Positions 12,606 to 43,438 of a stretch of 43,539 bases of DNA are shown piece by piece. Numbering within the stretch: position 1 is the stretch's first letter; each line of letters starts with the position of its first letter. The stretch covers positions 7,991,003 to 8,034,541 of the forward strand of contig JARFOE010000176.1 of assembly GCA_031763465.1 (NCBI GenBank), read 5' to 3'. Both the position numbers and the translations under genes were made by a program. The notes below the pieces were generated by a model. The model ran no database searches, was not told the origin of the DNA, and saw only the letters and a list, made by a program, of their open reading frames with translations. Source of the DNA: Squatina squatina (taxonomy: Eukaryota).

Positions 12606-12900
12606 AGAAATAGCAGTTCTTCTATTCAGCGTAGGAATGGGATGGATACAGATTCATCAGAAATTACCTATGCAGTGCCACCAAACATTGCTATATGTCA
12701 CGGTTTCAGCAACTTTGCCAGACTTCAGAATGAGAGTTCTTCAGGAATTGAATTGTACAACAGATCAGAGCTTTTATGTTATTCTTGAAAAAGTTAAAAA
12801 TGCATGTGTCACAAATTAATGAAAGACTTCCGAAAATTACAAGTGAATTGAAATTAAGATTATCCCTTCATTAGTTTCACAATTGCCAATAGGTACTCAC

Positions 12901-12969
12901 CACTAAATCCCAATTATTCTGTTCGAGCAATGTAATAGCTTCATCAATATTTTCAATTCCAGTGCATGC
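12901..12969 (-). CDS. FAF1: FAS-associated factor 1, coding exon 2 (UBA domain)
   Basis: ttttctgtag|...|gtgagt splice sites; 69 nt translating ACTGIENIDEAITLLEQNNWDLV, matching the FAF1 N-terminal UBA region. Confidence 0.96.
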
Positions 12970-16229: not shown

Positions 16230-18081
16230 ATTTGAGAAGCAGCCGTAGGTCATACCATATTGAATTGGCCAGTCCCGCGATAGAGAGTTACTGCCCGTCC
16301 ACTCCTCGGGTCCTTGCTCTGGTCTTATCGCGTGCAATTTTTTTAACTGAGTTTTTTTTTCTCGGTCGAAATTCTTGTTGCTTCCCACCAGAGTGTTGTG
16401 CCTAATTTAAATGGGACATGGGTCCTGTTACTGTTACACATACACGTAATGATTTGCAGGATACCATCTTGAATACATATTCAGTTCAGCTACCTCAGGC
16501 ATGGCTGAACTTGCTCCTGCGGTGACAGTTGTCAGCAGTGAGCGCTGCTCAGGGGACAGACCACAACGGGCCGTTTAGACAACTTGTCAGTCTCGGCATA
16601 TCTTGTTTGCATTTACAAAAGATGGCACCTGGACTTAGGAACGGTGCGTGTTGGACAGGTGGCCGAAAGACGGCGAGTTTNNNNNNNNNNACACGCTCCA
16701 CCATGAGAGCGCGAAGCCTAAAAACCCTCCAGTTCTGAGACACCAAGGGCCCGGACGAGAAATTCTGGTCTGACCTTCGCGTGCAAAATGCAAATCAGTA
16801 GATTAATAGGTGGAGTTGGAGTGGGGATTGGCTCTTTCAATTTACATTGTACAGTTTAAAATTGCTCCGCGTCCGTTACTGGGATTCCGTCAGCGCAAAG
16901 TATAACGGAGACGCCTTTGCAAAGGTTAATGTGCGAGCAGAGAGCCCGGGGAGCGAGCGCCCAAAGCACAAAACCCGCTCCGGAGCGCCAGTCCGCGCTG
17001 GCCTCAGCTCCAGCTTTAAACCGTGCCTGCCGTTTCCGTTACGACGCAGAGTGTGGGCGGCACTGGCAGAAGCTGAGAAGCGCTCATTTTTAAAATTTGA
17101 TGATGTCAATAAGTTTTTTTTTCTCGCAAAACTGCTATAAGCGATCAGCAATTACGGAACCGCCAGCATTTTCATAAGGAGCAAAACGTCAACCTTCACC
17201 GTTGCAAGGGCAACTGCACGAATCCTGTGACCGGATCACAACGGCTACTTTAAACGTGAACATTTGCACATTAACCGGGGCAGCAGCAAGTTACTTTCTT
17301 GCTCGGAATACGAGGATAGCGCCGCAATGAGCAGTCGCTGCCTTCCAAGCCCGGGACTGGACATGTCAAAGCTGACAGACTCACTTCCTTTGAACGGAGC
17401 GGCTTTTTGGCATTTTTCTGCAATTTAATTTGACTAAAAGAGTAAGTGGAACCCAAAAAAACAGAAATCTTATGAACAAGCCGGAGTTTGCTGCCGAGAG
17501 CAGCCTTTCCTTTGCAGTGAAGTAACAGTTGCAAAATGGGCGGGAAAACTGCAAAACATTCAAATATTGTATCTCTATGGGGATACAGTAACTGATTCAA
17601 CTGCTGTATTTTCTGAAATTATTTCGAGATTTTTTTTACAATCGCGTGGGTGAGATACTAATTATCCACGCAGCAGCTGACGAGAAGTTAATCGAATTCT
17701 GATATTTTTNNNNNNNNNNNNNNNNNNNNNNNNNNNNNNNNNNNNNNNNNNNNNNNNNNNNNNNNNNNNNNNNNNNNNNNNNNNNNNNNNNNNNNNNNNN
17801 NNNNNNNNNTTCTGATATTTTTTGTGCATCTGGGGGAACATGGCACAAATCACTTGAAAATGTTAACTTTGAGATAGCCAAGCTATCCTTGGACTTGTAT
17901 CACGTGTATTATATTGATGAGAAAAAAAGGGGCGGATCGGGCAACGTCATTACGAGGGATCACACATCAATTACTCTAGGTTAGTAAATACTATACTACA
18001 GAGCGGGGCCAGATTCTTCATCTCCACCATACCTGTTGGCGTCTGTGCTTTTCGGATTTCGACCTTTTTGAAGTATTAATA
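16230..18081. promoter_or_regulatory. CpG-rich region: CDKN2C promoter/5' UTR (divergent to FAF1)
   Basis: High CpG density relative to flanks, directly upstream of the CDKN2C ATG. Contains a consensus E2F site GGCGGGAAAA at 17539-17548 and a GC box ggggcgga near 17929. Confidence 0.7.
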
Positions 18082-18219
18082 ATGGAAACAGCTGATGGAT
18101 CAGACGGTGATAAACTAACAAGCGCGGCAGCCAAAGGAGACTCGAAAGAAGTCAACACTTTGCTCGAAAACGGGGTGAAAGTGGGTGCAATCAATAAGTT
18201 TGGCAGAACTGCACTTCAG
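18082..18219 (+). CDS. CDKN2C: Cyclin-dependent kinase 4 inhibitor C (p18INK4c), coding exon 1
   Basis: METADGSDGDKLTSAAAKGDSKEVNTLLENGVKVGAINKFGRTALQ|gttggt: INK4 ankyrin repeat 1 with the conserved FGRTALQ|VM intron position. Synteny with FAF1 and RNF11 supports the CDKN2C identity. Confidence 0.92.
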
Positions 18220-19853
18220 GTTGGTGTAACTATTATTTTTTTTCTGCACTACGTACCGCATTTTCATCCGTGAGAAAATCAAGCCTGCGCTGTCCTACGT
18301 GCATTGTTTTTTATTTTCCTAAAAAAAAACGTCCACCTATTTTCGTCAATGTGTCAGTGTGGATCAGACAGCAGTAGATACGCATTGCTGAAATAGCCAT
18401 TGAATTGCAAAACACCTTGGTAAAAACAAATGCAATTTGCTTTGATAATGCCGTTTGATTATATGATTCTCCACCAGTATCTTTCGGGACGATGCGATTT
18501 CTTCACTTCNNNNNNNNNNNNNNNNNNNNNNNNNNNNNNNNNNNNNNNNNNNNNNNNNNNNNNNNNNNNNNNNNNNNNNNNNNNNNNNNNNNNNNNNNNN
18601 NNNNNNNNNNNNNNNNNNNNNNNNNNNNNNNNNNNNNNNNNNNNNNNNNNNNNNNNNNNNNNNNNNNNNNNNNNNNNNNNNNNNNNNNNNNNNNNNNNNN
18701 NNNNNNNNNNNNNNNNNNNNNNNNNNNNNNNNNNNNNNNNNNNNNNNNNNNNNNNNNNNNNNNNNNNNNNNNNNNNNNNNNNNNNNNNNNNNNNNNNNNN
18801 NNNNNNNNNNNNNNNNNNNNNNNNNNNNNNNNNNNNNNNNNNNNNNNNNNNNNNNNNNNNNNNNNNNNNNNNNNNNNNNNNNNNNNNNNNNNNNNNNNNN
18901 NNNNNNNNNNNNNNNNNNNNNNNNNNNNNNNNNNNNNNNNNNNNNNNNNNNNNNNNNNNNNNNNNNNNNNNNNNNNNNNNNNNNNNNNNNNNNNNNNNNN
19001 NNNNNNNNNNNNNNNNNNNNNNNNNNNNNNNNNNNNNNNNNNNNNNNNNNNNNNNNNNNNNNNNNNNNNNNNNNNNNNNNNNNNNNNNNNNNNNNNNNNN
19101 NNNNNNNNNNNNNNNNNNNNNNNNNNNNNNNNNNNNNNNNNNNNNNNNNNNNNNNNNNNNNNNNNNNNNNNNNNNNNNNNNNNNNNNNNNNNNNNNNNNN
19201 NNNNNNNNNNNNNNNNNNNNNNNNNNNNNNNNNNNNNNNNNNNNNNNNNNNNNNNNNNNNNNNNNNNNNNNNNNNNNNNNNNNNNNNNNNNNNNNNNNNN
19301 NNNNNNNNNNNNNNNNNNNNNNNNNNNNNNTTTTGACACGCAGAAGCTCATTTGTTTGAACGACGGTATAAACCTGCATTTAAAGTCACAGTAACTAAGC
19401 AATATATTTTGTAATGTTCATATTTTAACTACTATATATTAACTTTTAAAGTTCCCCCCTCCGAATTACCTCTTAGGTAAGAGGATAGGGCACCGGCTCC
19501 TGGTGTACTCACGATTTTAAATAACGGCTTTCCTTTTTGCATAATATGAAGATTATTCTTTCAGCAAATGTCACAATTTTTGTTTATTTTCTATATTGAA
19601 AGGTTGACTGCACTAAACGTTATGAAAATAAGAGTTCATAGTTGGTTTATGCATTACTATCTTGCCTCTCGAAACATTCTGTGGTTTACCTCGAATCGCG
19701 TTTTAACTGTGCAGTAATGATATGCAATACAATAACTAAACGTTTTGATTTAATTTAATGAATTAAATCAATGAATGCGTCTACAGGTAACCAGAATTGA
19801 CCTGTAAAAATAAAATTTCGTTTTCTTTAATATCAAAAAGAAANNNNNNNNNN

Positions 19854-20150
19854 AGTCTTGCATTTATATAGCCCCTTTCAGGTTGTCCCAAAACAGCTAA
19901 TTAAACTACACATTTGAAGTGTAGTCATTGTTGTAATGTAGAAAACGCGGCAGCCAGTTGCGCACAGTCAGGTCCCACAAACAGCAGTGTGATAACAACC
20001 AGATAAGCTGCTTTTGTTATGTTGATTGAAGGATAAATATAGGCCAGGACACCGGGGATAACTCCCCTGCTGGTCTTCGAAATAGTGCCACCGGAAAGAA
20101 CAGACAGGGCCTTGGTTTAACGTCTCATCTGAAAGACTGCACCTCTGACG
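19854..20150 (-). mobile_element. Deu-domain SINE (SacSINE1-like) in CDKN2C intron
   Basis: Reverse complement of the 33181-33605 element (cttgcatttatatagc...cccacaaacagca...ggataaatataggccagg...ggtttaacgtctcatctgaaagac). Confidence 0.8.
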
Positions 20151-20556
20151 GTGAAAAGTGTCCAGATAAAATACAGAAATAGATTGGTCCAACATTTACC
20201 AACTATCAAATAATAGTTGTGGTGAAACATCATTACGAATTTCGTTAAATCAAAAGTTAGTTGGAAAAGTTGAGATATAGCACCTGGACTCANNNNNNNN
20301 NNTACTCAGGAAAAAGGATTAGAGAATTTGATTAAAATGGATGTTTGTTGCACTAACTTTGCGTAGTTAACAGACTTAAACATACATTGCTTAAGGTTTT
20401 ATAATAGTCTTACAGAGAGAAAAAAATGCCAGTCTTGCAGTACATCCTTTAATTCTGTAATGTTAAAATTTGGTGTTTTTAAGATATATGTGCTGGTACT
20501 ATCTTACATTTCATGTTTTTTTTCTCTTTTTTTTTACCCCTTTTCTATATTTCCAG

Positions 20557-20850
20557 GTGATGCAAATGGGTAATACTATAATAGCCAAATCATTGCTGAA
20601 AGCTGGAGCTGAACCAAACCAGCAAGATCACAGTGGATTCACACCAGCTCACGATGCGGCTCGGGAAGGCTTTCTGGACACTTTGAAAACCTTGGTGGAC
20701 TTTGGGGCAAATGTTAATATTGAAAATTCTGAGGGCAATCTGCCCATCCATCTTGCTGCACAGGAAGGTCACACAGATGTAATTATTTTTTTGGCAAAGA
20801 AATCAAACCTCTCACATAAAAACGAAAAGGGACAGACTAGAGCACGAATA
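20557..20850 (+). CDS. CDKN2C: p18INK4c coding exon 2 (3' end lost in assembly gap)
   Basis: Long pyrimidine tract + ttccag|GTG; [94 protein letters not shown] (INK4 ankyrin repeats). In phase with exon 1; stop codon not visible. Confidence 0.92.
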
Positions 20851-23029: not shown

Positions 23030-23517
23030 AAATATTTTTCCCGCCGCCCACTTTGATCCTTGATTCTCCAATTCAGGAATTTGAGTTTTCGGTGTATTTT
23101 TCGGAATCTTTTATTGCAAAATATTGATTTCGAAAAAAACCACGTTGGAAATGAGAGAAAAAACGTCTAATTTCACCACACCTCCCGGCGTCATACGTGA
23201 GACGTTGTGCTTCCTGTTGCAGAAGTGCCCACAAAAAACAAAGTTAAATGTTGTTTCTTGAAAAAAATGATACTTTGGATTAACATCTTAAAGACGTATT
23301 GATGAACATTAATATTGTGCCAGTTCTTCCGTCCAGAAACCGCTTGGCTGAGCGCTGGGCGAGCGAGGTGACGTTTCGGATACACAGGGTCATATTGAAC
23401 CTGTCAAATCTGCTCGTCACCTCGAAGTGAAGGGAAAACGGTGTCAGAACTAAGGAGATATCGTGGATTGAAAGTGCACGAGTCCGCTCGCTCCAGGAGG
23501 ACAACTGCTGACAGCTT
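23030..23517. promoter_or_regulatory. Second CpG-rich promoter-like island
   Basis: CpG-rich and non-repetitive. Contains E2F consensus TTTTCCCGCC (23036-23045), a GC box, an ETS-like cttcctg and a CRE half-site gtgacgt. No coding exon recognised. Confidence 0.5.
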
Positions 23518-25047
23518 NNNNNNNNNNNNNNNNNNNNNNNNNNNNNNNNNNNNNNNNNNNNNNNNNNNNNNNNNNNNNNNNNNNNNNNNNNNNNNNNNNN
23601 NNNNNNNNNNNNNNNNNTACTTACTCTGTATCTCTTACGCAGAGGTTGATTTTCGTACTTAATTCATATGGGAATTTTGTATTGCAGGATTTTTCAGCAA
23701 CCTATTGTCCACTGAAGAAAGGATATAGTTAATTTTGTTTTGGTAAACTTTATATATTTAATAGATTTATTAAAATAAGTGTAAGTCCAGAACTCTGCAA
23801 ATTCTCCACATAAAAGATGGCAAATAAACTGAAAACCTTCACTGTGATGCAAGTGAAGTCTCTCAAAGCATGTTTGAATTTGTTACTTGAGCCAATCAGA
23901 AAAGCTGCACAATTTTTTTTCTGCTACAGACAAATTTTATTTCCCAGTCTGAACGTTTAATGTGTGAAGTGCTATCTATATGTATATATTACAATAAAAG
24001 TAGGCAATGTCCACCATTTGTAGTATATTTGGAATATTATAGACTACAATTCAATGAGAGGTCAGCAAGACATGATGTATATACATATGTGTGGTGCACC
24101 CCAGATCGTGGTTTGCTGGGCATTTCACAGGCACACTCTTGCACTGCAGACACACCTTGAATGAAGAAGGAATGGCAGTATCCAGAGAATTGTATGCTAT
24201 GTGCTGATTTGCTTTGAAGTACTTATTGTAGATTGAAACTCCCATAACAAAGAGAAGTAATATCTTCAAAAACAGTACAGCATTTGATGTGGGGGAGAAT
24301 AATGGCTAGAAAATGCAAGTGCCTGTGACCTTTGTGGGAGCTGCATCTTATGCCAGCAGCAGTCAACTATGAACCACGTCCCTGTTTGAAAAGAACATGA
24401 AGCAGGTGTTGACAAATGACACCTTGCTACTGTTACTGCTGTGCAGGAATTAACATGAAGACCAGAAGATAGCATTAATTATCAGTGTGGTTCAGTACGG
24501 TCTCTTAAATATATTGTAATGTGTTGTTGGAGAAACTGTAAACCTATTAATGTTCAGTTCCAAAATATAAAATGTAATGGTGAAATATTTTATTTGATAG
24601 TGCTGTTATTGTGCAGGTACTGGTTCAACATTGGTACCTGCTTTAGAAGGTAGGAGCTGTCATACCAACAATTGCATGCTCTATAGTCAGGCAAAGAAGA
24701 GCACTGCATATGTGTATATGCATGCATGCACAACACTTCACTCACTGGTGTCCAAATACTAGTTAAATTTTTAATATTAGTGAACAGCTAACATTAAAAA
24801 GGCATAAAAAGTTGAAAGGCAGTAGTTGAGCTATAGAAATATTGAGAGTGCAGTTACACTTGCCAGAATTTGACGCGCCATCAGATAAGCAATGCCATTT
24901 GCAAGTTACACTGCAGGTTTTGTATCAATATGACATAATGGATACGTTACGTCAGTGCAAAAACTGCAGTATTATAAGAATATTAGAATCTTGGCTTTAT
25001 AGAAGATGGTTTTATTATTTTTATTAATTTCATATCTTTAGGAATAA

Positions 25048-25593
25048 AGGGGGCGAAGTTGCCCCTCGGCCCCATTTGGGGCAGTAACTCTCCGGGGCTG
25101 GGACTTTTAGCACCCAGCCCAGAAGTCCTGCCCCTGATGCAAAATGGTCCTTACCATCCTGGAAATGAGACGGAGTGCTTTCCGCTTCAGTTCCGGGGTG
25201 GTGTCAGGGCGGGAGCACGGCACTGAGTTCAGCTACACTCAAACACCACTCCCCTCTAATTAAAGGGTAGGGCTGCTGCACACTCTACAGCGCACCCCTA
25301 TGGCCGCCACTGGGCCACCAGGGATGCGATTGACCGGGCCAGCAGCCGGCACGTGAGGGCTGCCATCGGTCGGCTGACCAAAGAGTTGGATTACACAAAA
25401 AAATGGTGGCTGCCGGCGCTAACCGTCCTCCCCATTAAGGGGCTGAGACAACAGCAGCTTGCACCTCCGGGACTCCTTGAGGAATTTTCCGGCAGGTGAG
25501 ATCACCATCTCGCCCCGCCGATTTTTACTTTTTCACCCCGTTCGCGTCCCTTGGAGGCACTAATGGACAAAAAAAGGGGGAATTTCAGCCCCT
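25048..25593. mobile_element. PIF/Harbinger-type MITE
   Basis: Imperfect 19-bp TIRs (agggggcgaagttgcccct versus reverse complement aggggctgaaattccccct, 15/19) flanked on both sides by TAA (25045-47, 25594-96); GC-rich non-coding interior. Confidence 0.75.
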
Positions 25594-26509
25594 TAAACTT
25601 TCCTTTTGAGCACCCATATTATGATCAGTTATCTGATGATCATGTATCTGATAAGATTACAAGTAATATTTTTGTTCCAACATGTGATGTCAAGAGCATT
25701 GGGCTGCTTTATTAAAATAGTAAAGGGCAATTTTTGAGCTGTGATTTACTGGATTTGTCTTCTCCATGTAGCTATATGAAACTGATCTGGCATGTGTTTT
25801 TTTCATAATTTTGTAAATTTTCATGTAGACATTGTACAGGTAATACAATATGAATGTTAATCATTAATCGCATAAAAATGATATACGTACTTGGACTCAA
25901 CTCGATATACTCCAAGGATTAAATGACATTTGAAGTTGTACCATCCTCACAATGCTTACAGGATCATAAATCCCTAAATCCACAGGGCCAATTAAGGGGC
26001 ATCCAAAAAAACAGTGAAGTCTGAGTTAACAGGATCAGGTGAAGGCATTACCAGAAAGTATATAAATGCTCATCACTGTCGTCTTTTGTATGGACGTATT
26101 TGATTGCCTTTTATGCCTTGTTAAAACTGTATAATACAATAACACTATAATAAACACTTGTTTGGATCTGCACTTTTGATGGAAACTAACTTAAGCTTCA
26201 GGCTTTCAAATATTTTATANNNNNNNNNNNNNNNNNNNNNNNNNNNNNNNNNNNNNNNNNNNNNNNNNNNNNNNNNNNNNNNNNNNNNNNNNNNNNNNNN
26301 NNNNNNNNNNNNNNNNNNNTTTCTGCTCTGTGTTTCTATTTCTCCTTCCCCCCTCCCCTCCCCTCCCCCCCACACCACCACCATCCTAAAGAGGTCACAG
26401 TGGGTTCCCCAGGAATATTCCGAAAATGTGCTCTTTTTGGAGGAAGAAAAGGAGAAGCAACAAAGGGAGTACAGACTTGTCCAGCAGAATAAGAGGCACA
26501 CAGCACTTG

Positions 26510-27115
26510 CCCATCAATACCCCCACAGTAGATTATACAAACCGAGGCTGTCCTACCTCCACTTGACACAGGAGAGGTGCTTATGAGGGCAGCATTTCAC
26601 AAAGAAAAGCCATCAGAGTTAATGTCGCATGGGTCAACGCAACCTATAGTCTACCTCCACCACTTTGAGTAACCACAAAGAGTCACAGTCGCCTTGGAAC
26701 TTTTTTTGCAGTATGATCATTGCAGGCTGCCACTAGGAATATCAGTAACCTACAGTAATCAATTGTGCACAGCTGCATAAAGTCACAGATGCATAGTTTG
26801 CTAAAGCAAGTCAGTTCATTGCCTTCCCCAGCAACATGACAAGCCACTGCAATTTCACAGAGTTGCAGGATCCTCAAAGGTCCAAAGAGCCATAAATTGT
26901 ACACACGTGGCCAACCTTGCTATCTTCACCTCCGTCAATAGGAAAAGATTCCACTCTCTGAATCTACAGCTCCTTTGCAACCATCAGCAGCTTTGCAATA
27001 TACAAGTCAGTGGCCACTTCTCAGGTAGCTAGCACAGTGCCTTAATTTAAGGCAGTCCACCAGGAAATTGGTCACTTGCCTCAGACAGCTGTTTGGCTTA
27101 TATTGCTGATGTCCG
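26510..27115 (+). pseudogene. Degenerate PIF/Harbinger (HARBI1-like DDE) transposase
   Basis: Collinear motifs with stops and frameshifts: RLYKPRLSYLHLTQERCL*, VTVAL..FFA, KVTDA*FAKASQFIAFP, FHRVAGSSKVQRAINCTHVA (consensus GFPxVxGAIDCTHV), VNRKRFHSLNLQLLCNH (NRKGxHSxNVQxVCD), SGS*HSA (PGSxHDA). Confidence 0.8.
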
Positions 27116-29183
27116 CAATAGTAGTCTGTAATGAAGCCGCTGCATGAAAGTTAAGGGCAACTGTGACTTTGGCAGTCATTGGTTGAGTTGTGCCTGTGAA
27201 TGAGCTTCACTTCAGGTCAGTGTGGAGCATGTTGCACAACTGTTATGGTATTCCTTATAAATTGCAGTATCTAAAGGCACTGTTCCTTTGACAAATGGAA
27301 GTATCCATGCAACTGCCCATAGATTCTGGTATGGTAGTGCCAATGGTTGGGTGCAGAGTGTCTTTGGTGAAGCCTGACCTTCCTGGCATCTCCCTAGTGA
27401 TCCTCTTCTTCCTCTAAAAAGCACAGATTTACCATTTGGAATCGAACTATTGCAGCTAATGGGAAAAAAGGCTGCACCACAACAGTTGGTACAAAGGCTG
27501 CTAAATACCTCAGTGACAAAACAAAAAAAAACCCTAGAAAAACAATTGAGAACTGTCTTGGAAATTAGAAATGTTATTTGCACATTGATGCAAAAATAGA
27601 TTCATACATAGGTTATTGTTGAGAAGCGATGATGATGCTTTACATGTTTAATACATACATGGGTGTTTCTGGGATACTCTGCCACTGGATGCAGCCTAAC
27701 TAAGGAAAGCTTCCAAACTGCATTTCTGCCAGCTTTCAAACTCCTACTGAATAGTTTGTGTGAAAGGTCTAAATGTAATTACAGTACTATGGTGCATCAA
27801 CCTTAAAACTTCCTCTGATGCAAAGTATATTTTACTTGCTGGGTATAAGGAATACTTAAATCTTTCCCATACAGTTTCTAATGTTCCTCTTGCAAGAGTC
27901 CTGCAGAATTTTCCCCAAACACAAATACTTTAAATGCACAGATGGTGGTGTACATGTGGGAGTGAAACCATTTTGTGCATAATGCAGGTATCCATTCTCT
28001 TTGTCCTTTCTGAATGCAAGATTAAATTAACAGTTTGTAGCACACAAATGTCTTACTGTTATAATACTGGTAATTCTGTGAGCTTATAAAAACACAAAAA
28101 CAGTTCTTCATTGGTATTTTCCAAATTAACTGAAAAATGCCAAGCGTATAATATTTAGTGAACTGTTAACTATAAAAAAGGTCCGATTATACTACACCCA
28201 CGGATTTGCCCATTTGAAACTAATGAACAATGACACTTTATCAATCTGAAAGTGCTCTTGTATCTTAAGCTATCTATAGAAACTTTGTAAATTCAAACTG
28301 ACTGGAATCAAGCATGCAGACGGGACTGAGCAAATATCACAAAGATCGACTAAATTTAAGTTCCCTGTTTTGATTTCGATTGATTGATCAGTAATAGATG
28401 TATACTTGTCACAACATGCTAACTGCTGCACTGATATTTACACATCCTTGTCTCACTGTGTTCTGCTCAGCAATTAAGACACATTTTCAAAACTGAATTG
28501 TTGATTTCAACTGAATCTGTATAACAAAAAATTCACACTTTTCAATTTTAGTCAACAGTTCTCTGATAGTAACTTTACCAACAATTAGAATACTTATTTT
28601 GTCAGCAAATATGATTTAAAAAATTGAAGACGATGGTTACACGTATGAGCTCACTTAAAGATTGATATTCTTAAAAGAAAAGTATAGATACGCAAAATAC
28701 ATTTCACAGATATTACGTATTTTCAAATTGAAAGTTATAAACAATCACAATAATCTAAATACACCAACTGGAAAATACTGAATAGTTGTCTCTCTGTGAC
28801 TTCATTTTGGTCGATGTTGCTCTGTGCTTGGAAAACAGCTCAGGTGACCTTGACTGCAGACTGGACCCGAACTAATTTCTTGAACGGAGCTAACAGTCCT
28901 TTGCGTAAACAACCAGATCATTTTGTCAAAAAGGGGGAACAATGCTATCGTTTTTTTTGTATAGCACTGTAATGATAAATGTAGTTTCAGTTTCAAGCCT
29001 AAAACAACAGCTAAATATTTGATCTCAGTATTATTACACTGGGCATTAACTCCTATTTTTTTCTGGATATGAGCTGTCAATATTGTAAGCCTTTAAAAAA
29101 AGTTATAGCTTCTTAATTGCCCAATGTGTACTTATGCATCACCACATGAGAGGTCAGCCAGCTCTACTTATTTTTATTCACAG

Positions 29184-29383
29184 GTGACTGGTTGAAAAGC
29201 ATTCTGGTGACTCACAATTACTCTGATATTTTATTGACCTCTGAGAACATTGCCACTATATATGTGAATACTGCATTGAGGAGGCCAGCTTTGCTGAAAA
29301 ACTTTTTGTAAAACTTCTTGGACATTGGCTTTATGTTGTTTGGTGCTCTGGACATTCCTGGAAGACTTCTCCTGCCATTTATA
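29184..29383 (+). other. Candidate upstream exon of the membrane-protein gene (5' UTR, possibly with start of CDS)
   Basis: Strong acceptor tttttattcacag| and donor |gtgagt. No frame is open throughout; ATG at 29333 would give MLFGALDIPGRLLLPFI in phase 0, which does not join directly to the phase-1 TM exon. Confidence 0.3.
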
Positions 29384-29390
29384 GTGAGTA

Positions 29391-29507
29391 ATAGAAACAT
29401 AGAAAATAGGTGCAGGAGAAGGCCATTCGTCCCTTCGAGCCTGCACCGCCATTCAACACAATCATGGCTGATCTTTCAACTCAGTACCCCGTACCTGCTT
29501 TCTCTCC
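29391..29507 (-). mobile_element. CR1 LINE 3' tail
   Basis: atagaaacatagaaaataggtgcaggagaaggccattcgtcccttcgagcctgcaccgccattcaa, closely similar to 43455-43539. Confidence 0.8.
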
Positions 29508-30394
29508 NNNNNNNNNNNNNNNNNNNNNNNNNNNNNNNNNNNNNNNNNNNNNNNNNNNNNNNNNNNNNNNNNNNNNNNNNNNNNNNNNNNNNNNNNNNNN
29601 NNNNNNNTGGAGTGGGCCAGTGACAATGTAGCGAGTGGAGGATGCAAGCAAACCCACATTGTACATTTTCCTTGTTTATAAAACTCTTTCAGCGCACAGT
29701 GAAATTTGAAAGATTTTGGAGGGACAGGAAAAGGGGAAAAGATTTGTTTCAGGTGCTGCTCTGTTTATTTGTAAATCATTTTTCCCATCATTTGTGCTTC
29801 TCTGGGTATTCTTCCCCCTGTATTGTTATCTGCTTTAGTGTTACATTAGGGCCTGGGATTTAATCAGATTTCTTTTTTTCTATTCTGTGCATCTTACATT
29901 GAGAAAACCCTCCAAATATCTCCTCTCGTCAGCTGGTTACTTGCAGATTTTAGTATTCGTTCCTCTCTTGTCTTTCTACATCTTGGATTTCATGCCTGTG
30001 TTTGTTAAATTTATGTCGGCCTCTTTTTCGCTTTTAGGTTCTTTTTTCAGTTCCTCCATCTGTGTGATGTCTTTGCAACGAGATCTTCCCCCGTCATTTT
30101 CAGGTGCAATTGACCTTTTTTGGGTCATGCCATTTTTTTAAGCTGAAGGTTTCAGCCAAGGTGAAGCTGTTATCAATAAGGTTAGTCAGGCACCTGGATA
30201 AAAATTGAGGACAAATTATAATGGCAATTTTTGCTAACGGTACCTGGTTCATTTGCGAGACCTTTAAGATGTTCTGTGAAGTTCTTGGCATCTGACCATT
30301 GCAAGGACATCAATGCACTCAAGACGGTTTAGAAACGAACAACAATGATGACTGCGGGATTTAAGGATCTAAGTTATGCATACTGACTTACTGA

Positions 30395-30929: not shown

Positions 30930-31026
30930 AACAGTTTACCGCAATTTCGTTTATTGGAATCCTTGTCATACTGATTCTCATCGTTGCTCTATGCCTTGCC
31001 ATCTGCTGCCTTTGTCATAGAGAAAG
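30930..31026 (+). CDS. Uncharacterised single-pass membrane protein, transmembrane exon (positional equivalent of C1orf185)
   Basis: cag|...|gtatga; 97 nt, phase 1 to phase 2; xQFTAISFIGILVILILIVALCLAICCLCHRE(R): hydrophobic helix followed by a Cys cluster and basic residues. Confidence 0.72.
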
Positions 31027-31158
31027 GTATGAGATTTTCCCCTGTATTATATTGCAAAATAATCATTTTATATATCCTGTATAAGGAAATCACTGGTAAT
31101 GTAAATATAGCTAGAATAAATAAATATTTGCCATTCTCTCTCTTTGCCAACTTTTCAG

Positions 31159-31276
31159 AAAACGCCATCGTATTTTCAAACAAATGAGAAGTTCAGAGGT
31201 TTGTTTAAACCCGTTACCAGTTACTTGTGCATCAAAGTCTCCATGCTCTTCAAACCCGCATACTGAAGAATATCAG
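31159..31276 (+). CDS. Same membrane protein, juxtamembrane cytoplasmic exon
   Basis: cttttcag| acceptor in the correct phase: (R)KRHRIFKQMRSSEVCLNPLPVTCASKSPCSSNPHTEEYQ|gtagtg. The 3' boundary is uncertain (alternative donor at 31199; frame open to TGA at 31337-31339). Confidence 0.55.
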
Positions 31277-31525
31277 GTAGTGACTACTGGAAATATTTTA
31301 AAAGATATAACATCTGTCAACATTTATTTTTATTTCTGAAATCAAAAGAAAAAACCTTTTAATTGAGATATGGTCTAAGTTATATTGATTGACTTTAGAA
31401 AAGGTAAATATTCTTTGCAGTGTCNNNNNNNNNNNNNNNNNNNNNNNNNNNNNNNNNNNNNNNNNNNNNNNNNNNNNNNNNNNNNNNNNNNNNNNNNNNN
31501 NNNNNNNNNNNNNNNNNNNNNNNNT

Positions 31526-31891
31526 TCAATACTTCTGGATAAGTCCCAGACTGATGACTTAAGTCACAGTAGCAATGTAAAAGAAAGCACCAGTGGATCT
31601 TCTTACCAAAATACTTCTCTGTCAGCTTCTGAACAACATTCCAAAATTGAGTTAGAAAATAAATGTGGGTTTCAACATTGTAAAAGTAACTCAACGGATG
31701 TGGAACCTTCTTTGACTTCTGTTGAAAATTCGACAAGAAACTGTTCTAGTCTTGTTTCACAGGAGATTATTCATTTTGATTCGCAAATCCCGTCATTGGT
31801 GGGTGACTGTTACTGTGCAGAGGATAAAGAACCATGTAGCAAAACTACTACAGTTAGATATGTGTTTACTGATAGTGAAACTGAATTTTAA
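31526..31891 (+). CDS. Ser/Thr-rich terminal coding exon, probably of the same gene (5' end in gap)
   Basis: 121 open codons in AT-rich DNA (SILLDKSQTDD...VRYVFTDSETEF*), followed by AATAAA at 31980-31985 and 32019-32024. Confidence 0.6.
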   Translation, partial: SILLDKSQTDDLSHSSNVKESTSGSSYQNTSLSASEQHSKIELENKCGFQHCKSNSTDVEPSLTSVENSTRNCSSLVSQEIIHFDSQIPSLVGDCYCAEDKEPCSKTTTVRYVFTDSETEF

Positions 31892-32084
31892 ATACTGCTA
31901 TTGTAGCTAAAAAAAATATACGTAAATCACTGAACTAAAATCAGTTTTATTGTATGGCTTAGGTAGAAGCAATTAAGGGAATAAAACTATTTTATTCTAC
32001 TGACAGCCAACAAAGACAAATAAAAATCAACTAGTTTTACATTTTACAGTATTCAGGGCTTGAATGTGTCTCTTGTGACTTGAT

Positions 32085-34369: not shown

Positions 34370-34503
34370 ATGGGAAATTGTTTGAAATCTCCTACGTCTG
34401 ATGACNNNNNNNNNNTGACATTTCTTTGCTCCATGAGTCTTCTGACCGGGCGAGCTACGGAGACGGCACCGAAATAGACCAGGAGCCGCCGCCGCCATAT
34501 CAG
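34370..34503 (+). CDS. RNF11: RING finger protein 11, exon 1
   Basis: MGNCLKSPTSDD[10-N gap with duplicated tgac]ISLLHESSDRASYGDGTEIDQEPPPPYQ|gtttgc; Gly2/Cys4 acylation sites and PY motif present. Confidence 0.95.
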
Positions 34504-35640
34504 GTTTGCCTTTGTCTTTTGGACAAGTTTTCTTTTTGTCGTCTGCCCGTCTGGTGTCTCTGAACATCTTGGTGTGTCTCCAGAAACACACCATTGGTGA
34601 TTTTGAAGTATAATGTTTTATTTTTCGGTCACTTTATTAATCTTTTTCGCATTAACACAATTATCAAATCAGTTGCGTTTAATAAGGTCTGTAATTGCTA
34701 TTTTTCCGTTCGGAATTAAAAAGTGCCTTTTTTTTTAAAAGGACTTTAATTTCAGTTATCAACATAAAACCCCAGCTATCACAAATTTAAGTTTAAAATT
34801 AAATAGCTTAAAGAGGTAAGGCAAAATCTTTCAAGTGCTGTAATGTTTTCATACAACTGAATTAGATGCCATGTTTTAGCGTCTTTGGTGAATATTGACA
34901 TTTGTATTTTCAACTATTCGAACAAAATATGTCGTCTTGAAAACTGAAATCCTAGACCTGTCTTACCCAAGATTAAAATTTTTGCGTATACTGTTCTTTG
35001 ACAGTATATTGTTTTCAAATAATATGAAACTTTAGGTATTAAAGCACCTACTTATTTGATCCATGTGCGTCAGCCTGCACAATTTATTTTACCATTGGTA
35101 GGTATTTCCCTTTCTTTGTTTTTAGCACAATTAATGCATCAGGAAGAAACAAAACCGCTTTGCCAAGTTAGTGCACTGTTGTCTGCAGTGGATAGGCAGC
35201 TANNNNNNNNNNNNNNNNNNNNNNNNNNNNNNNNNNNNNNNNNNNNNNNNNNNNNNNNNNNNNNNNNNNNNNNNNNNNNNNNNNNNNNNNNNNNNNNNNN
35301 NNAATGGTAATTTCCAAAGTACTTGATGAAAGTCCCAAGGCTCCTGGTATATCTAAGTTTGAATCACATTAATTTATGCTGAGCTGCTAGCTTGGGTAGC
35401 TGGCAATAGTTCCATGTTCAGATAATGGTGATGCTGTTGGCCACTTCACACATGCATCCTCCTGTATTTGTATATTGCAAACTTTGAAGTATACTACTGT
35501 GGTACTCTGGATGCTGCTATAAAATAGAAACTTTTATACTTTGTATAAAAACCTTAGTGTTTGTTATTGCACCTTAATTGAAGCATTATTAGATTGTTCA
35601 ATGTCTTTTTCTTTCTGTCCCCAACTCCCCTTCTTCTTAG

Positions 35641-35810
35641 GAACAGGTTCAGGTTCCTGTTTATCATCCTACTCCAAGTCAAACCCGGCTAGCCACTCAA
35701 CTTACCGAAGAGGAACAAATCAGAATAGCGCAAAGAATAGGCCTCATTCAGCATCTGCCCAAAGGTGTCTATGACCCCGGAAGAGATGGATCGGAAAAGA
35801 AAATTAGAGA
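35641..35810 (+). CDS. RNF11: RING finger protein 11, exon 2
   Basis: ttcttcttag|...|gtgagt; 170 nt; EQVQVPVYHPTPSQTRLATQLTEEEQIRIAQRIGLIQHLPKGVYDPGRDGSEKKIR(E). Confidence 0.97.
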
Positions 35811-36587
35811 GTGAGTTTTGAAGTATTTTCATAATTAAAAAATCTCTGTAAAATGGGGCCACTTGATCTCAGACCAAGCTTGCTGGGACAAGCAGGTTTT
35901 GCTCAATCGATTAGTTGGGTGCTGCAGTTGTGTACCCCATTTTTGGTATAGAACCATTTTTTAAAAGTAGCGTTCTCTGCCAAAAATTGGACCATTGCCA
36001 AACTGGACAGATCCCACCTTCCTTNNNNNNNNNNNNNNNNNNNNNNNNNNNNNNNNNNNNNNNNNNNNNNNNNNNNNNNNNNNNNNNNNNNNNNNNNNNN
36101 NNNNNNNNNNNNNNNNNNNNNNNNATCCCACCTTCCTTTCTTGTCTCTCTTGCCCTTCAAAAAAACACTGGTAGTGCACTGTCTTTGCTTAACATACCAT
36201 TACTGTGCTTCCCATTAACCTGTTTAAGCCTTGCAGTGTCAATTCTGAGTTTGCCTTTCCCTGTTGTCTCTTCCTTTTATATTCTCTCCTATATCCAGCA
36301 TTTTAACTTCCGTTTCTGATTTGTTCTAAATTTTAATGTTTGTTTTGCATATTTTTCCTGTAGCTCTACCAGCATGCTTTCCATTCAGGAGCTCAGGCCC
36401 ATTTGCAGCTATGAAATGTTAAATGTAATCTTCATGTTGAGAATTTGCTGCTATTCTAATTTGTATCCAGAATGCTCACAAAGCACCACGTGAAGGACTA
36501 TTGGACAAATTTGTACAGTATCTTTTTTTGTGTGTGCGATAAACTAGTTTGTGTGTACTGCTAAGCAATTTTTTTTTTGCCTTTCAG

Positions 36588-36759
36588 GTGTGTTATATGT
36601 ATGATGGACTTTGTTTATGGCGATCCAATTAGGTTTCTTCCATGCATGCATATTTATCACCTGGACTGTATAGATGACTGGCTGATGCGATCCTTTACAT
36701 GCCCTTCATGTATGGAACCAGTGGATGCTGCATTGCTTTCTTCATATGAGACCAACTGA
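36588..36759 (+). CDS. RNF11: RING finger protein 11, exon 3 (RING-H2 domain, stop)
   Basis: tttcag| acceptor; CVICMMDFVYGDPIRFLPCMHIYHLDCIDDWLMRSFTCPSCMEPVDAALLSSYETN*; phase matches exon 2. Confidence 0.98.
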
Positions 36760-42572: not shown

Positions 42573-43438
42573 CCGACAGCACTAGCAACCCCCCCTGCCC
42601 ACCTACCCTCGCGATGATATTGGTCCAGGCTCTATTGAGGTGCAACCTGTCCAGCCTGTACAGGTCCCACCTCCCCAGGAACCGGTCCCAATGTCCCAGG
42701 AATCTAAAGTACTGCCTCCTGCACCATCTCTCCAGCCACACATTCATCTGCTCTATCCTCTTATTTCTGTACTCACTAGCTCGTGGCACCAGGAGTAATC
42801 TAGAGATTACTACCTTTGAGGTCCAGCTTTTTAATCTCTTTCCTCGCTCCCTAAAATCTGCCTGCAGGACCTCATCCCTCTTTTTACCTATGTTGTTGGT
42901 ACAGATATGGACCACGATCTCTGGCTGTTCATCCTCCCCCCTCAGAATGTTTTGCAGCCGCTCAGTGATTTCCTTGACCCTGGCACCAGGGAGGCGATGT
43001 ACCATCCTGGAGTCATGTCTGTGGCTGCAGAAATGCCTGTCTGTTCCCCTAACTATCGAATCGCCTATCACTATTGCTTTACTGATCTCCCACCCCCCCA
43101 CCTCAGCAGCAAACTGGTTGGGGAGTGAGATGCACTTGGGACTCCTGCACTACCTGCCTGGTCCTCCTTGTCTATCTGATGGTCACCCATTCCCTCTCTG
43201 CCTGCACACTCTTATGCTGCTTGGTGATCACCTCCTGAAACATTCTATCCAGGTAGCTCTCAGCCTCACAGATGCACTGCAGTGATGCCAGCTACTGCTC
43301 AAGCACAGAAACCCAGTGCTCAAGCGCCTCCAGCTGACTAGACGTCCTGCACGTGTGGTTGTCTAGGACACGGGAAGCATCCTGGAGTTCCTACATGGCA
43401 CAATATGTGCATTCCACGGGACTGAGGTGCCCTGCCAT
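42573..43438 (-). mobile_element. CR1 LINE ORF1 (zinc finger/coiled coil + SGNH esterase), degenerate
   Basis: MAGHLSPVECTYCAM*...HTCR...LEQ*LASLQCI, then AIVIGDSIVRG, LPGARV, VVHICTNN, DRLHLN (GDSL/SGNH esterase blocks typical of CR1 ORF1p); contains in-frame stops. Confidence 0.88.

What the first reader, a model, noticed from the sequence alone, without database searches (positions are those of the whole stretch)
30930..31990. Unrecognised single-pass membrane protein at the C1orf185 position with features of a palmitoylated transmembrane adaptor
Seen: two phase-compatible exons encode a TM helix ending ALCLAICCLCHRE, then a basic stretch (RKRHR). After a gap there is a 121-aa Ser/Thr-rich open frame with a YQN motif (31604-31612) and poly(A) signals. 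Established: human C1orf185, a poorly characterised single-pass protein with a Ser-rich tail, lies between CDKN2C and RNF11. Palmitoylated adaptors (LAT, PAG1, LAT2) have a CxxC at the end of the TM and YxN Grb2-SH2 sites; LAT reads ALCVHCHR. Inference: either a highly diverged C1orf185 orthologue, which would extend that gene back to early jawed vertebrates, or a lineage-specific adaptor. I cannot recognise primary-sequence homology by eye, and joining the terminal exon across the gap is assumed.
Basis: partly seen in the sequence, partly recalled or inferred. Interest (0 to 1): 0.7.

Follow-up and report, generated by a model that had tools for sequence, protein, structure and literature searches.

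The report
Shark EGF-cassette membrane protein, C1orf185 locus
These exons belong to a real shark-and-ray gene for a single-pass membrane protein with an optional EGF domain and a long serine-rich tail; it is likely the distant counterpart of the mammalian sperm gene C1orf185 rather than an immune signalling adaptor.

Summary
The exons, phases, YQN and poly(A) signals are all present as described, and the gene is real: orthologous RefSeq models exist in 10 shark and ray species (last exon 55-76% identical). The 100-N placeholder gap hides 289-647 codons in relatives. Seven of 8 species with the TM exon also carry an upstream EGF-like cassette exon. It is skipped in one horn-shark isoform, absent from all 16 electric-ray models, and not found in the sequenced part of this window. 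The adaptor idea fails: YxN is at the equivalent site in 0 of 9 species and arises by chance in 14% of shuffles. The juxtamembrane CxxC is conserved (6 of 8). The best-conserved parts are an 87-residue Ser-rich block and the last 28 residues. C1orf185 orthology is likely but unproven. It rests on position, layout, exon phases and one weak DUF4718 hit (E 1.4) that did not recur; no bony-vertebrate relative was found. Best reading: a palmitoylated membrane scaffold of male germ cells whose tail grew by exon duplication. Interest modest.

The parts
30930..31026 (+). Transmembrane exon (phase 1 to phase 2): signal-anchor helix ending in a Cys cluster
   Evidence: splice sites, frame; 21-27 of 33 residues identical between horn shark and 5 other species; only confident helix in the AF2 model
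31004..31015 (+). Juxtamembrane CCLC (CxxC), predicted palmitoylation site
   Evidence: sequence; CxxC in 6 of 8 species with the exon, at least 3 Cys in all 8; palmitoylation itself untested
31027..31158 (+). 132-nt GT-AG intron
31159..31276 (+). First cytoplasmic exon (phase 2 to phase 0): basic stop-transfer stretch, then a Cys/Pro/Ser-rich segment ending EEYQ
   Evidence: the donor after YQ matches the isoform break point in horn shark
31425..31524 (.). 100-N placeholder gap; inferred to hide the cassette exons and about 124 codons of the last exon, including most of the best-conserved 87-aa block
31526..31891 (+). Visible 3' part of the last coding exon (121 aa plus stop)
   Evidence: 10 chondrichthyan proteins, 55-76% identical over 99% of the query
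31604..31612 (+). YQN, not conserved
   Evidence: YxN at this site in 0 of 9 species; chance 0.14
31805..31888 (+). Conserved C-terminal 28 residues (YC..D.EPCSK.TTVRY.FTDSE); last residues variable
   Evidence: 23-26 of 27-28 identical across 6 species; invariant columns
31980..31985 (+). AATAAA poly(A) signal (a second at 32019-32024)
23518..29607 (.). Upstream region with three 100-N gaps (23518-23617, 26220-26319, 29508-29607) where the start exon and EGF exon may be hidden
   Evidence: inference; profile searches of the sequenced part found neither exon (best E 0.24 and 0.95)
18082..20850 (+). Upstream neighbour, CDKN2C-like ankyrin gene (context only)
   Evidence: Pfam Ank; the gene name is recalled, and the PDB search was swamped by multi-ankyrin proteins
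34370..36759 (+). Downstream neighbour, RNF11-like RING-H2 gene (context only)
   Evidence: Pfam RING, N-terminal and PY motifs; the gene name is recalled

Best explanation
The exons belong to a shark-and-ray gene for a single-pass membrane protein with no signal peptide, a skippable EGF exon and a long serine-rich tail; it is likely the diverged orthologue of C1orf185 and would work as a lipid-anchored membrane scaffold in developing sperm. Shown: gene structure, conservation, the EGF cassette in relatives and the tandem cassette exons of the tail. Inferred steps: (1) the helix inserts as a type III signal anchor, N-terminus outside or in the lumen, fixed by the basic stretch after it; (2) the cysteines at the inner membrane edge are palmitoylated; (3) the largely unstructured tail binds cytoplasmic partners through two conserved Ser/Thr/acidic blocks (the 87-aa block with a short helix, and the last 28 residues), probably under Ser/Thr rather than Tyr phosphorylation; (4) the cassette exons act as an adjustable spacer; (5) when included, the EGF module gives one extracellular or lumenal contact; (6) the setting is spermatids, by transfer from C1orf185.
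For: Orthologue models in 10 elasmobranch species. No hydrophobic stretch before the EGF in any of 42 EGF-bearing models (best 8-residue Kyte-Doolittle mean at most 0.64 in the 36 scored; Heptranchias N-termini read). EGF above the Pfam cut-off in 5 of 6 proteins; a 44-aa exon skipped cleanly in P0015 and absent from 16 of 16 Narcine models. The EGF-less form has the C1orf185 layout: short N-terminus, TM, Ser-rich tail. The block is 81/87 identical horn shark to catshark and 56-74/87 to rays, against 19-24% for the cassette region in rays. Cassettes are duplicates (29-33 of 37-40 identical in Heptranchias, z about 19-21). Position between CDKN2C-like and RNF11-like genes. DUF4718 was the only Pfam family returned for any of 6 tails, on the conserved block. 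C1orf185 is testis-specific and fast-evolving, 56% human-mouse (PMC8750304), peaks with elongating spermatids (PMC4502369) and is found in bull sperm (PMC10629479).
Against: No bony-vertebrate or chimaera relative in an exhaustive profile search of 1.84 billion proteins (6 of 7 hits elasmobranch) or in two word-based searches. The DUF4718 hit is 9.1 bits against a cut-off of 27 (E 1.4), in 1 of 6 tails. It recurred in 0 of 9, 0 of 10 and 0 of 4 further queries, where unrelated families scored better. PMC11555623 states, from unpublished data, that the C1orf185 linkage to Cdkn2c-Faf1 is not conserved among vertebrates. C1orf185 is 199-230 aa with 5 exons, against 544-913 aa here. No expression data for any shark tissue. 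Phase 1-to-2 TM exons are common (own knowledge). Partners, palmitoylation and topology are untested. The mouse knockout is fertile, so even the mammalian role is undefined.
Confidence: 0.45

Rival explanations
1. An elasmobranch-specific EGF-TM gene that arose independently in this interval and is unrelated to C1orf185; the shared position is coincidence and its tissue is open.
For: All searches stop at elasmobranchs; DUF4718 not reproduced; EGF domain, length and exon number differ from C1orf185; PMC11555623 remark on non-conserved linkage.
Against: Same interval and (recalled) same strand; the EGF-less isoform has the same layout; the one DUF4718 hit falls on the best-conserved block, near the end of the profile (126-166 of 184); a gene only 56% identical between human and mouse is expected to escape detection at this distance.
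Confidence: 0.25
2. A membrane-tethered EGF ligand built like neuregulin-4 (no signal peptide, one EGF next to the membrane) that signals to a receptor on a neighbouring cell, with the tail secondary.
For: Same gross layout as NRG4 (PMC8064692 passages); EGF 24-38 of 44 identical across 4 species compared; best PDB match is a Notch1 EGF repeat (E 0.0024); O-fucose consensus (recalled pattern) in 4 of 4 sharks with the EGF.
Against: Spacing is CX4CX5CX11CXCX8C, not the CX7CX4-5CX10CXCX8C of EGFR ligands (PMC8657471). Leu or Phe stands before Cys6, where ErbB ligands have Arg (recalled). The domain sits in one exon, is skippable and is missing in Narcine. O-fucose site absent in 3 of 3 batoids. 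The tail block is better conserved than the EGF.
Confidence: 0.15
3. A LAT/NTAL/PAG-type palmitoylated transmembrane adaptor that recruits Grb2 through phosphorylated YxN.
For: CxxC in the window and 6 of 8 species; type III layout; EGF-less isoforms exist; ESM Atlas lists a LIME1-named cluster at 0.91 for the EGF-less N-terminus (137 shared features, Pfam share 13%, a lead only).
Against: YxN at the site in 0 of 9 species; the two catsharks differ even in the Tyr; no ITAM or ITIM in any of 10 species, and no YxN, ITSM or YxxM shared beyond a single lineage; Tyr only 1.8-3.0% of the tail; EGF ectodomain in 7 of 8 species.
Confidence: 0.06
4. In this species the gene is a shortened or decaying copy that lacks the EGF and middle exons.
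For: Those exons are not in the sequenced window; Narcine lacks EGF; 5 of 5 Heptranchias models lack the last exon.
Against: All visible exons have open frames, canonical splice sites and 76% identity to horn shark; the gap cuts mid-exon; near-identical cassette repeats are what short-read assemblies fail on (inference).
Confidence: 0.09

Closest known systems
RefSeq uncharacterised elasmobranch models (e.g. XP_067892503-13 Heterodontus, LOC119964595 Scyliorhinus, LOC129700943 Leucoraja, LOC116977805, LOC134354888, LOC127568721)
   Same: Orthologues: same TM exon, next exon and last exon.
   Different: Only predicted; named uncharacterised or after low-complexity look-alikes (dentin sialophosphoprotein-like, serine-rich adhesin-like, LisH-like). 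No paper in the library names five of the locus ids or DUF4718.
C1orf185 / 4930522H14Rik (Pfam DUF4718, PF15842)
   Same: Position next to CDKN2C (PMC11555623; RNF11 side and strand recalled); short N-terminus, TM ending in Cys plus basic residues, Ser-rich tail; TM exon ending in a split Arg codon at phase 2 (human boundary recalled).
   Different: 199-230 aa, 5 exons, no room for an EGF before the TM; no significant sequence match obtained (best E 1.4).
[quoted passage not shown]
   Same: Testis-specific Ser-rich single-pass protein; knockout disturbs Golgi movement in spermatids (PMC7401026, abstract). A model for what such a scaffold can do.
   Different: Different locus (recalled); no Pfam hit to it seen; functional analogue only.
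Palmitoylated transmembrane adaptors LAT, NTAL/LAT2, PAG1, LIME1
   Same: Type III layout, juxtamembrane CxxC, tail without an enzyme domain.
   Different: No conserved Tyr docking motifs; EGF ectodomain in most models; tail 2-4 times longer.
Neuregulin-4 and ErbB ligands
   Same: No signal peptide, single membrane-proximal EGF (NRG4).
   Different: Notch-type cysteine spacing, no Arg before Cys6, skippable exon, very long tail.

Membership tests
C1orf185 / DUF4718 | Match to PF15842 at the gathering score (27 bits) | tested here: not met
   best 9.1 bits, E 1.4, 1 of 6 tails; 0 of 9, 0 of 10 and 0 of 4 further queries; 0 of 4 window pieces
C1orf185 / DUF4718 | Position between CDKN2C and RNF11, same strand | tested here: met
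   neighbours by Pfam and motifs, names recalled; human adjacency to CDKN2C from PMC11555623, RNF11 side recalled; synteny of the other sharks' models not checked
C1orf185 / DUF4718 | Short N-terminus, one TM, Ser-rich tail, no folded ectodomain | tested here: inconclusive
   met by 16 of 58 TM-bearing models (EGF-less), not by 42 of 58; unknown for the window's species
C1orf185 / DUF4718 | Same intron phases around the TM exon | tested here: inconclusive
   window 1/2/0; mammalian boundaries are recalled; the mouse guide table and the c.41-117 deletion put the TM end at the 3' edge of exon 2 (translated by hand)
C1orf185 / DUF4718 | Reciprocal or profile-profile homology with amniote sequences | not testable with these tools
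   no search returned a C1orf185 sequence
C1orf185 / DUF4718 | Testis-specific expression | not testable with these tools
   no expression data
Palmitoylated transmembrane adaptors (LAT, NTAL, PAG) | Extracellular part of a few residues (PMC3342071) | tested here: not met
   44-aa EGF exon in 7 of 8 species; met only by skipped isoforms and Narcine
Palmitoylated transmembrane adaptors (LAT, NTAL, PAG) | Juxtamembrane CxxC | tested here: met
   window and 6 of 8 species; acylation not tested
Palmitoylated transmembrane adaptors (LAT, NTAL, PAG) | Several conserved Tyr SH2-docking motifs such as YxN | tested here: not met
   0 of 9 at the site; one unrelated YENI in Narcine only
Palmitoylated transmembrane adaptors (LAT, NTAL, PAG) | Leukocyte expression and Syk/ZAP-70 phosphorylation | not testable with these tools
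   experiment needed
ErbB ligands / neuregulins | Cys spacing CX7CX4-5CX10CXCX8C (PMC8657471) | tested here: not met
   CX4CX5CX11CXCX8C in 7 of 7 species with the EGF
ErbB ligands / neuregulins | Arg before the sixth Cys (recalled) | tested here: not met
   Leu or Phe in 7 of 7
EGF-like domain (PF00008) | Six cysteines and Pfam score above 21.5 bits | tested here: met
   5 of 6 orthologue proteins above cut-off, the sixth 21.4; exon not seen in the window itself

The most novel reading that the evidence does not exclude
The ancestral jawed-vertebrate C1orf185 was an EGF-bearing, signal-peptide-less germ-cell membrane protein. One symmetric exon switches it between a surface-ligand form and a bare scaffold form, and tandem exon duplication tunes its tail. 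Electric rays and mammals each kept only the EGF-less form, so the dispensable mammalian gene is a reduced remnant.
Probability: 0.3. Interest if true: 0.6.

Novelty: new variant of a known kind. Interest (0 to 1): 0.38.

Why it matters
If the orthology holds, a gene studied so far in mammals dates back to the shark-bony fish split. The shark sequences then point to the short stretch of C1orf185 that has been kept, and so to where its partner binds, and they show a lost EGF ectodomain. It would also correct misleading automatic names in several genomes. If it does not hold, this is an elasmobranch-specific EGF-TM family with strongly conserved motifs in a low-complexity tail. Neither case overturns a general principle, and it is not a new immune adaptor.

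Tried and rejected
Grb2 adaptor: rejected on conservation. ErbB ligand: rejected on spacing. C-terminal PDZ ligand: ETDV in horn shark and catsharks, but ETEF here, ENEV in bamboo shark and ETDD/ETEA/ETDG/ETDA in rays, so not a family feature. Searches for bony-vertebrate relatives led nowhere: profile against 1.84 billion representatives (7 hits; the seventh, P0013, is a 6085-aa unnamed protein with 22 matched stretches, not examined); block query (2 of 54 candidates); EGF-TM query (9 of 45). The word-based searches were limited to 160-510 and 226-721 aa and to shared 5-mers, so they are weak negatives. ESM Atlas: nothing for the block; generic Cys-edged type III helices for the N-terminus (synaptotagmin VIIa, LIME1, both 0.91). 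DUF4718 did not recur. AlphaFold2 on 12- and 6-row alignments gave mean pLDDT 32.6 and 37.6, with only the TM helix confident and one weak helix in the block. The EGF also failed to fold, so this does not prove disorder, and no fold search was run. Self-BLAST showed no internal repeats, but direct cassette comparison did. EGF, start, middle and block exons were not found in the window. A CpG-bearing stretch near 23040-23517 did not pass the island filter. The PDB search did not single out CDKN2C. Literature searches returned no paper; one returned one unrelated review and 70 only general shark papers (listings). No complex prediction was run, since no partner is claimed. dN/dS was not computed (no orthologue DNA).

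Full report
Observation. The TM exon is 30930-31026 (97 nt, phase 1 to 2). A 132-nt GT-AG intron follows, then exon 31159-31276 (118 nt, phase 2 to 0). After a 100-N gap, a 121-codon frame runs 31526-31888 with YQN at 31604-31612, and AATAAA lies at 31980 and 32019. The flanking genes are an ankyrin gene and a RING-H2 gene on the same strand, with a FAF1-like exon on the minus strand further upstream (the names CDKN2C, RNF11 and FAF1 are recalled).

The gene is real and much larger. The last exon found 10 proteins among 366 candidates, all from sharks and rays, 55-76% identical over 99% of the query. Later calls brought the set to 66 models from 10 species. These proteins map back onto the window's TM exon and next exon (tblastn E 2.5e-24) and last exon (E 5.6e-51). 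Of 58 models with the TM, 48 also have the last exon. Two unnamed skate contigs of 2903 and 2839 nt hold the whole 893-aa frame (P0037, P0038), which I read as spliced transcripts. So the join across the gap is right, but 289-647 residues lie in between (38 of 40 rows; two fragment rows dropped). The 100-N gaps are placeholders: 19 of 31 gaps have that size, and two have overlapping flanks. The missing exons were not found elsewhere in the window.

Anatomy in relatives. A hydrophilic N-terminus of 13-34 residues with no signal-peptide-like stretch is followed by a 44-residue exon with one EGF-like domain. It scores above the Pfam cut-off in 5 of 6 proteins, and its nearest solved relative is a Notch1 repeat at E 0.0024. 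Then come the TM with its Cys cluster and a tail of about 450-800 residues, 14-19% Ser. The EGF exon is optional: 42 of 58 TM-bearing models have it, horn-shark isoform P0015 skips it in frame, and none of 16 Narcine models has it. Whether the window's species has it cannot be told. The middle of the tail is a row of 35-40-residue units that isoforms skip singly, so I read them as cassette exons. Some are clear duplicates (29-33 of 37-40 identical in Heptranchias; 3 of 10 horn-shark pairs at z above 5). Conservation peaks in two places: an 87-residue Ser-rich block lying almost wholly in the gap, just 5' of the visible last-exon part (81/87 horn shark to catshark, 56-74/87 to four rays), and the last 28 residues (23-26 identical). 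The EGF is 24-38/44 and the cassette region 19-24% in rays. AlphaFold2 gave a confident TM helix and little else; the alignments were shallow and the EGF did not fold either, so disorder is inferred, not shown.

Adaptor test. Adaptors have a few extracellular residues, often a CxxC, and several Tyr docking motifs (PMC3342071, passages). The CxxC is present here and in 6 of 8 species. At the YQN site, 0 of 9 species have YxN and 4 of 9 keep the Tyr; the two catsharks differ from each other. A YxN arises in 14% of shuffles of the 121 residues. No ITAM or ITIM occurs in any of 10 species, and the only other YxN is one Narcine site. The ESM Atlas placed the EGF-less N-terminus near synaptotagmin VIIa and LIME1 clusters at 0.91, which fits a Cys-edged type III helix and no more. 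The protein may be anchored like an adaptor, but it is not one.

C1orf185 test. For: the position; the EGF-less layout; the exon phases (mammalian boundaries recalled); and the fact that DUF4718, the C1orf185 family (recalled), was the only Pfam family returned for any of six tails, matching the conserved block to profile positions 126-166 of 184. The mouse guide table and the c.41-117 deletion in PMC8750304 (passages and supplement; supplement figures are images and were not seen) place the end of the TM, Cys then basic residues, at the 3' edge of exon 2 near residue 39, leaving no room for an EGF. Human and mouse proteins are only 56% identical, so a weak signal to sharks is expected. Against: the hit is 9.1 bits against a cut-off of 27 (E 1.4), in 1 of 6 tails. 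It was absent from 9 and 10 whole proteins and from 4 trimmed stretches, where unrelated families scored better. An exhaustive profile search returned 7 proteins, 6 elasmobranch and one unexamined giant repeat-like protein. Two word-based searches returned only elasmobranchs. PMC11555623 (passages) says the linkage of C1orf185 to Cdkn2c-Faf1 is not conserved in vertebrates, citing unpublished data; an unrecognisable orthologue would give the same impression. No tool returned a C1orf185 sequence, so the direct comparison is undone. I put orthology at about 0.65 and do not file the gene as a DUF4718 member.

Mechanism. I commit, at 0.45, to a palmitoylated type III membrane scaffold of male germ cells that binds partners through the two conserved Ser/Thr/acidic blocks, with cassette exons as spacer and an optional EGF contact. 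Structure and conservation are shown. Topology and acylation are inferred from sequence. The tissue is borrowed from C1orf185: testis-specific with a fertile knockout (PMC8750304), peaking with elongating spermatids (PMC4502369, passage), and detected in bull sperm (PMC10629479, passages). SSMEM1, a testis Ser-rich single-pass protein needed for Golgi movement in spermatids (PMC7401026, abstract only), shows what such a protein can do. Rivals: an unrelated elasmobranch gene (0.25); an NRG4-like tethered ligand (0.15; spacing differs from EGFR ligands, PMC8657471 passage; NRG4 layout from PMC8064692 passages); a shortened copy in this species (0.09); a Grb2 adaptor (0.06).

Novelty. The orthologues are already predicted in RefSeq under empty or misleading names. 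Searches for five locus ids and DUF4718 and for shark testis EGF-like terms found no paper; C1orf185 with shark found one unrelated review (listing). The library holds only open-licence papers and preprints. New here are the optional EGF exon, the cassette tail and the link to C1orf185. Verdict: a real, conserved gene, not an immune adaptor, probably a deep C1orf185 orthologue; interest 0.38.

Noticed in passing
window 34406-34415: A 10-N gap in the first exon of the RNF11-like gene shifts the frame; the flanks repeat 4 nt, so it is likely an assembly artefact rather than a frameshift.
   Followed up: partly
window about 12898-12966, minus strand: FAF1-like exon, head-to-head with the CDKN2C-like gene; CpG island at 16701-17400 between them (name recalled).
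   Followed up: partly
window 42574-43146 minus; 12278-12571 minus: Mobile-element remnants: a GDSL/SGNH esterase-like frame (Pfam E 1.1e-6, typical of a LINE ORF1; recalled) and a reverse-transcriptase fragment (E 1.2e-4).
   Followed up: partly
window 23040-23517: CpG-bearing stretch running into a gap; a possible promoter or first exon of the gene studied, but it does not pass the island filter.
   Followed up: partly
window about 26320-26720: Looks by eye like a Harbinger-type transposon remnant; Pfam did not confirm it in the one frame tested.
   Followed up: partly
P0019 (Heterodontus isoform X9), residues 407-493: This isoform replaces the last exon with a DDE_Tnp_4 transposase-derived exon (E 1.1e-9).
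   Followed up: no
P0048, P0049, P0051-P0053 (Heptranchias): 5 of 5 models lack the conserved last exon and end in a short alternative one; annotation gap or real truncation is unknown.
   Followed up: no
P0008, P0009 (skates), about residues 500-600: A lineage-specific 10-residue Cys/Pro repeat (CLDP..S) further lengthens the tail.
   Followed up: no
P0020, P0022, P0025, P0026, P0067: Catshark and Narcine isoform models without the TM segment; possibly soluble forms or artefacts of gene prediction.
   Followed up: no
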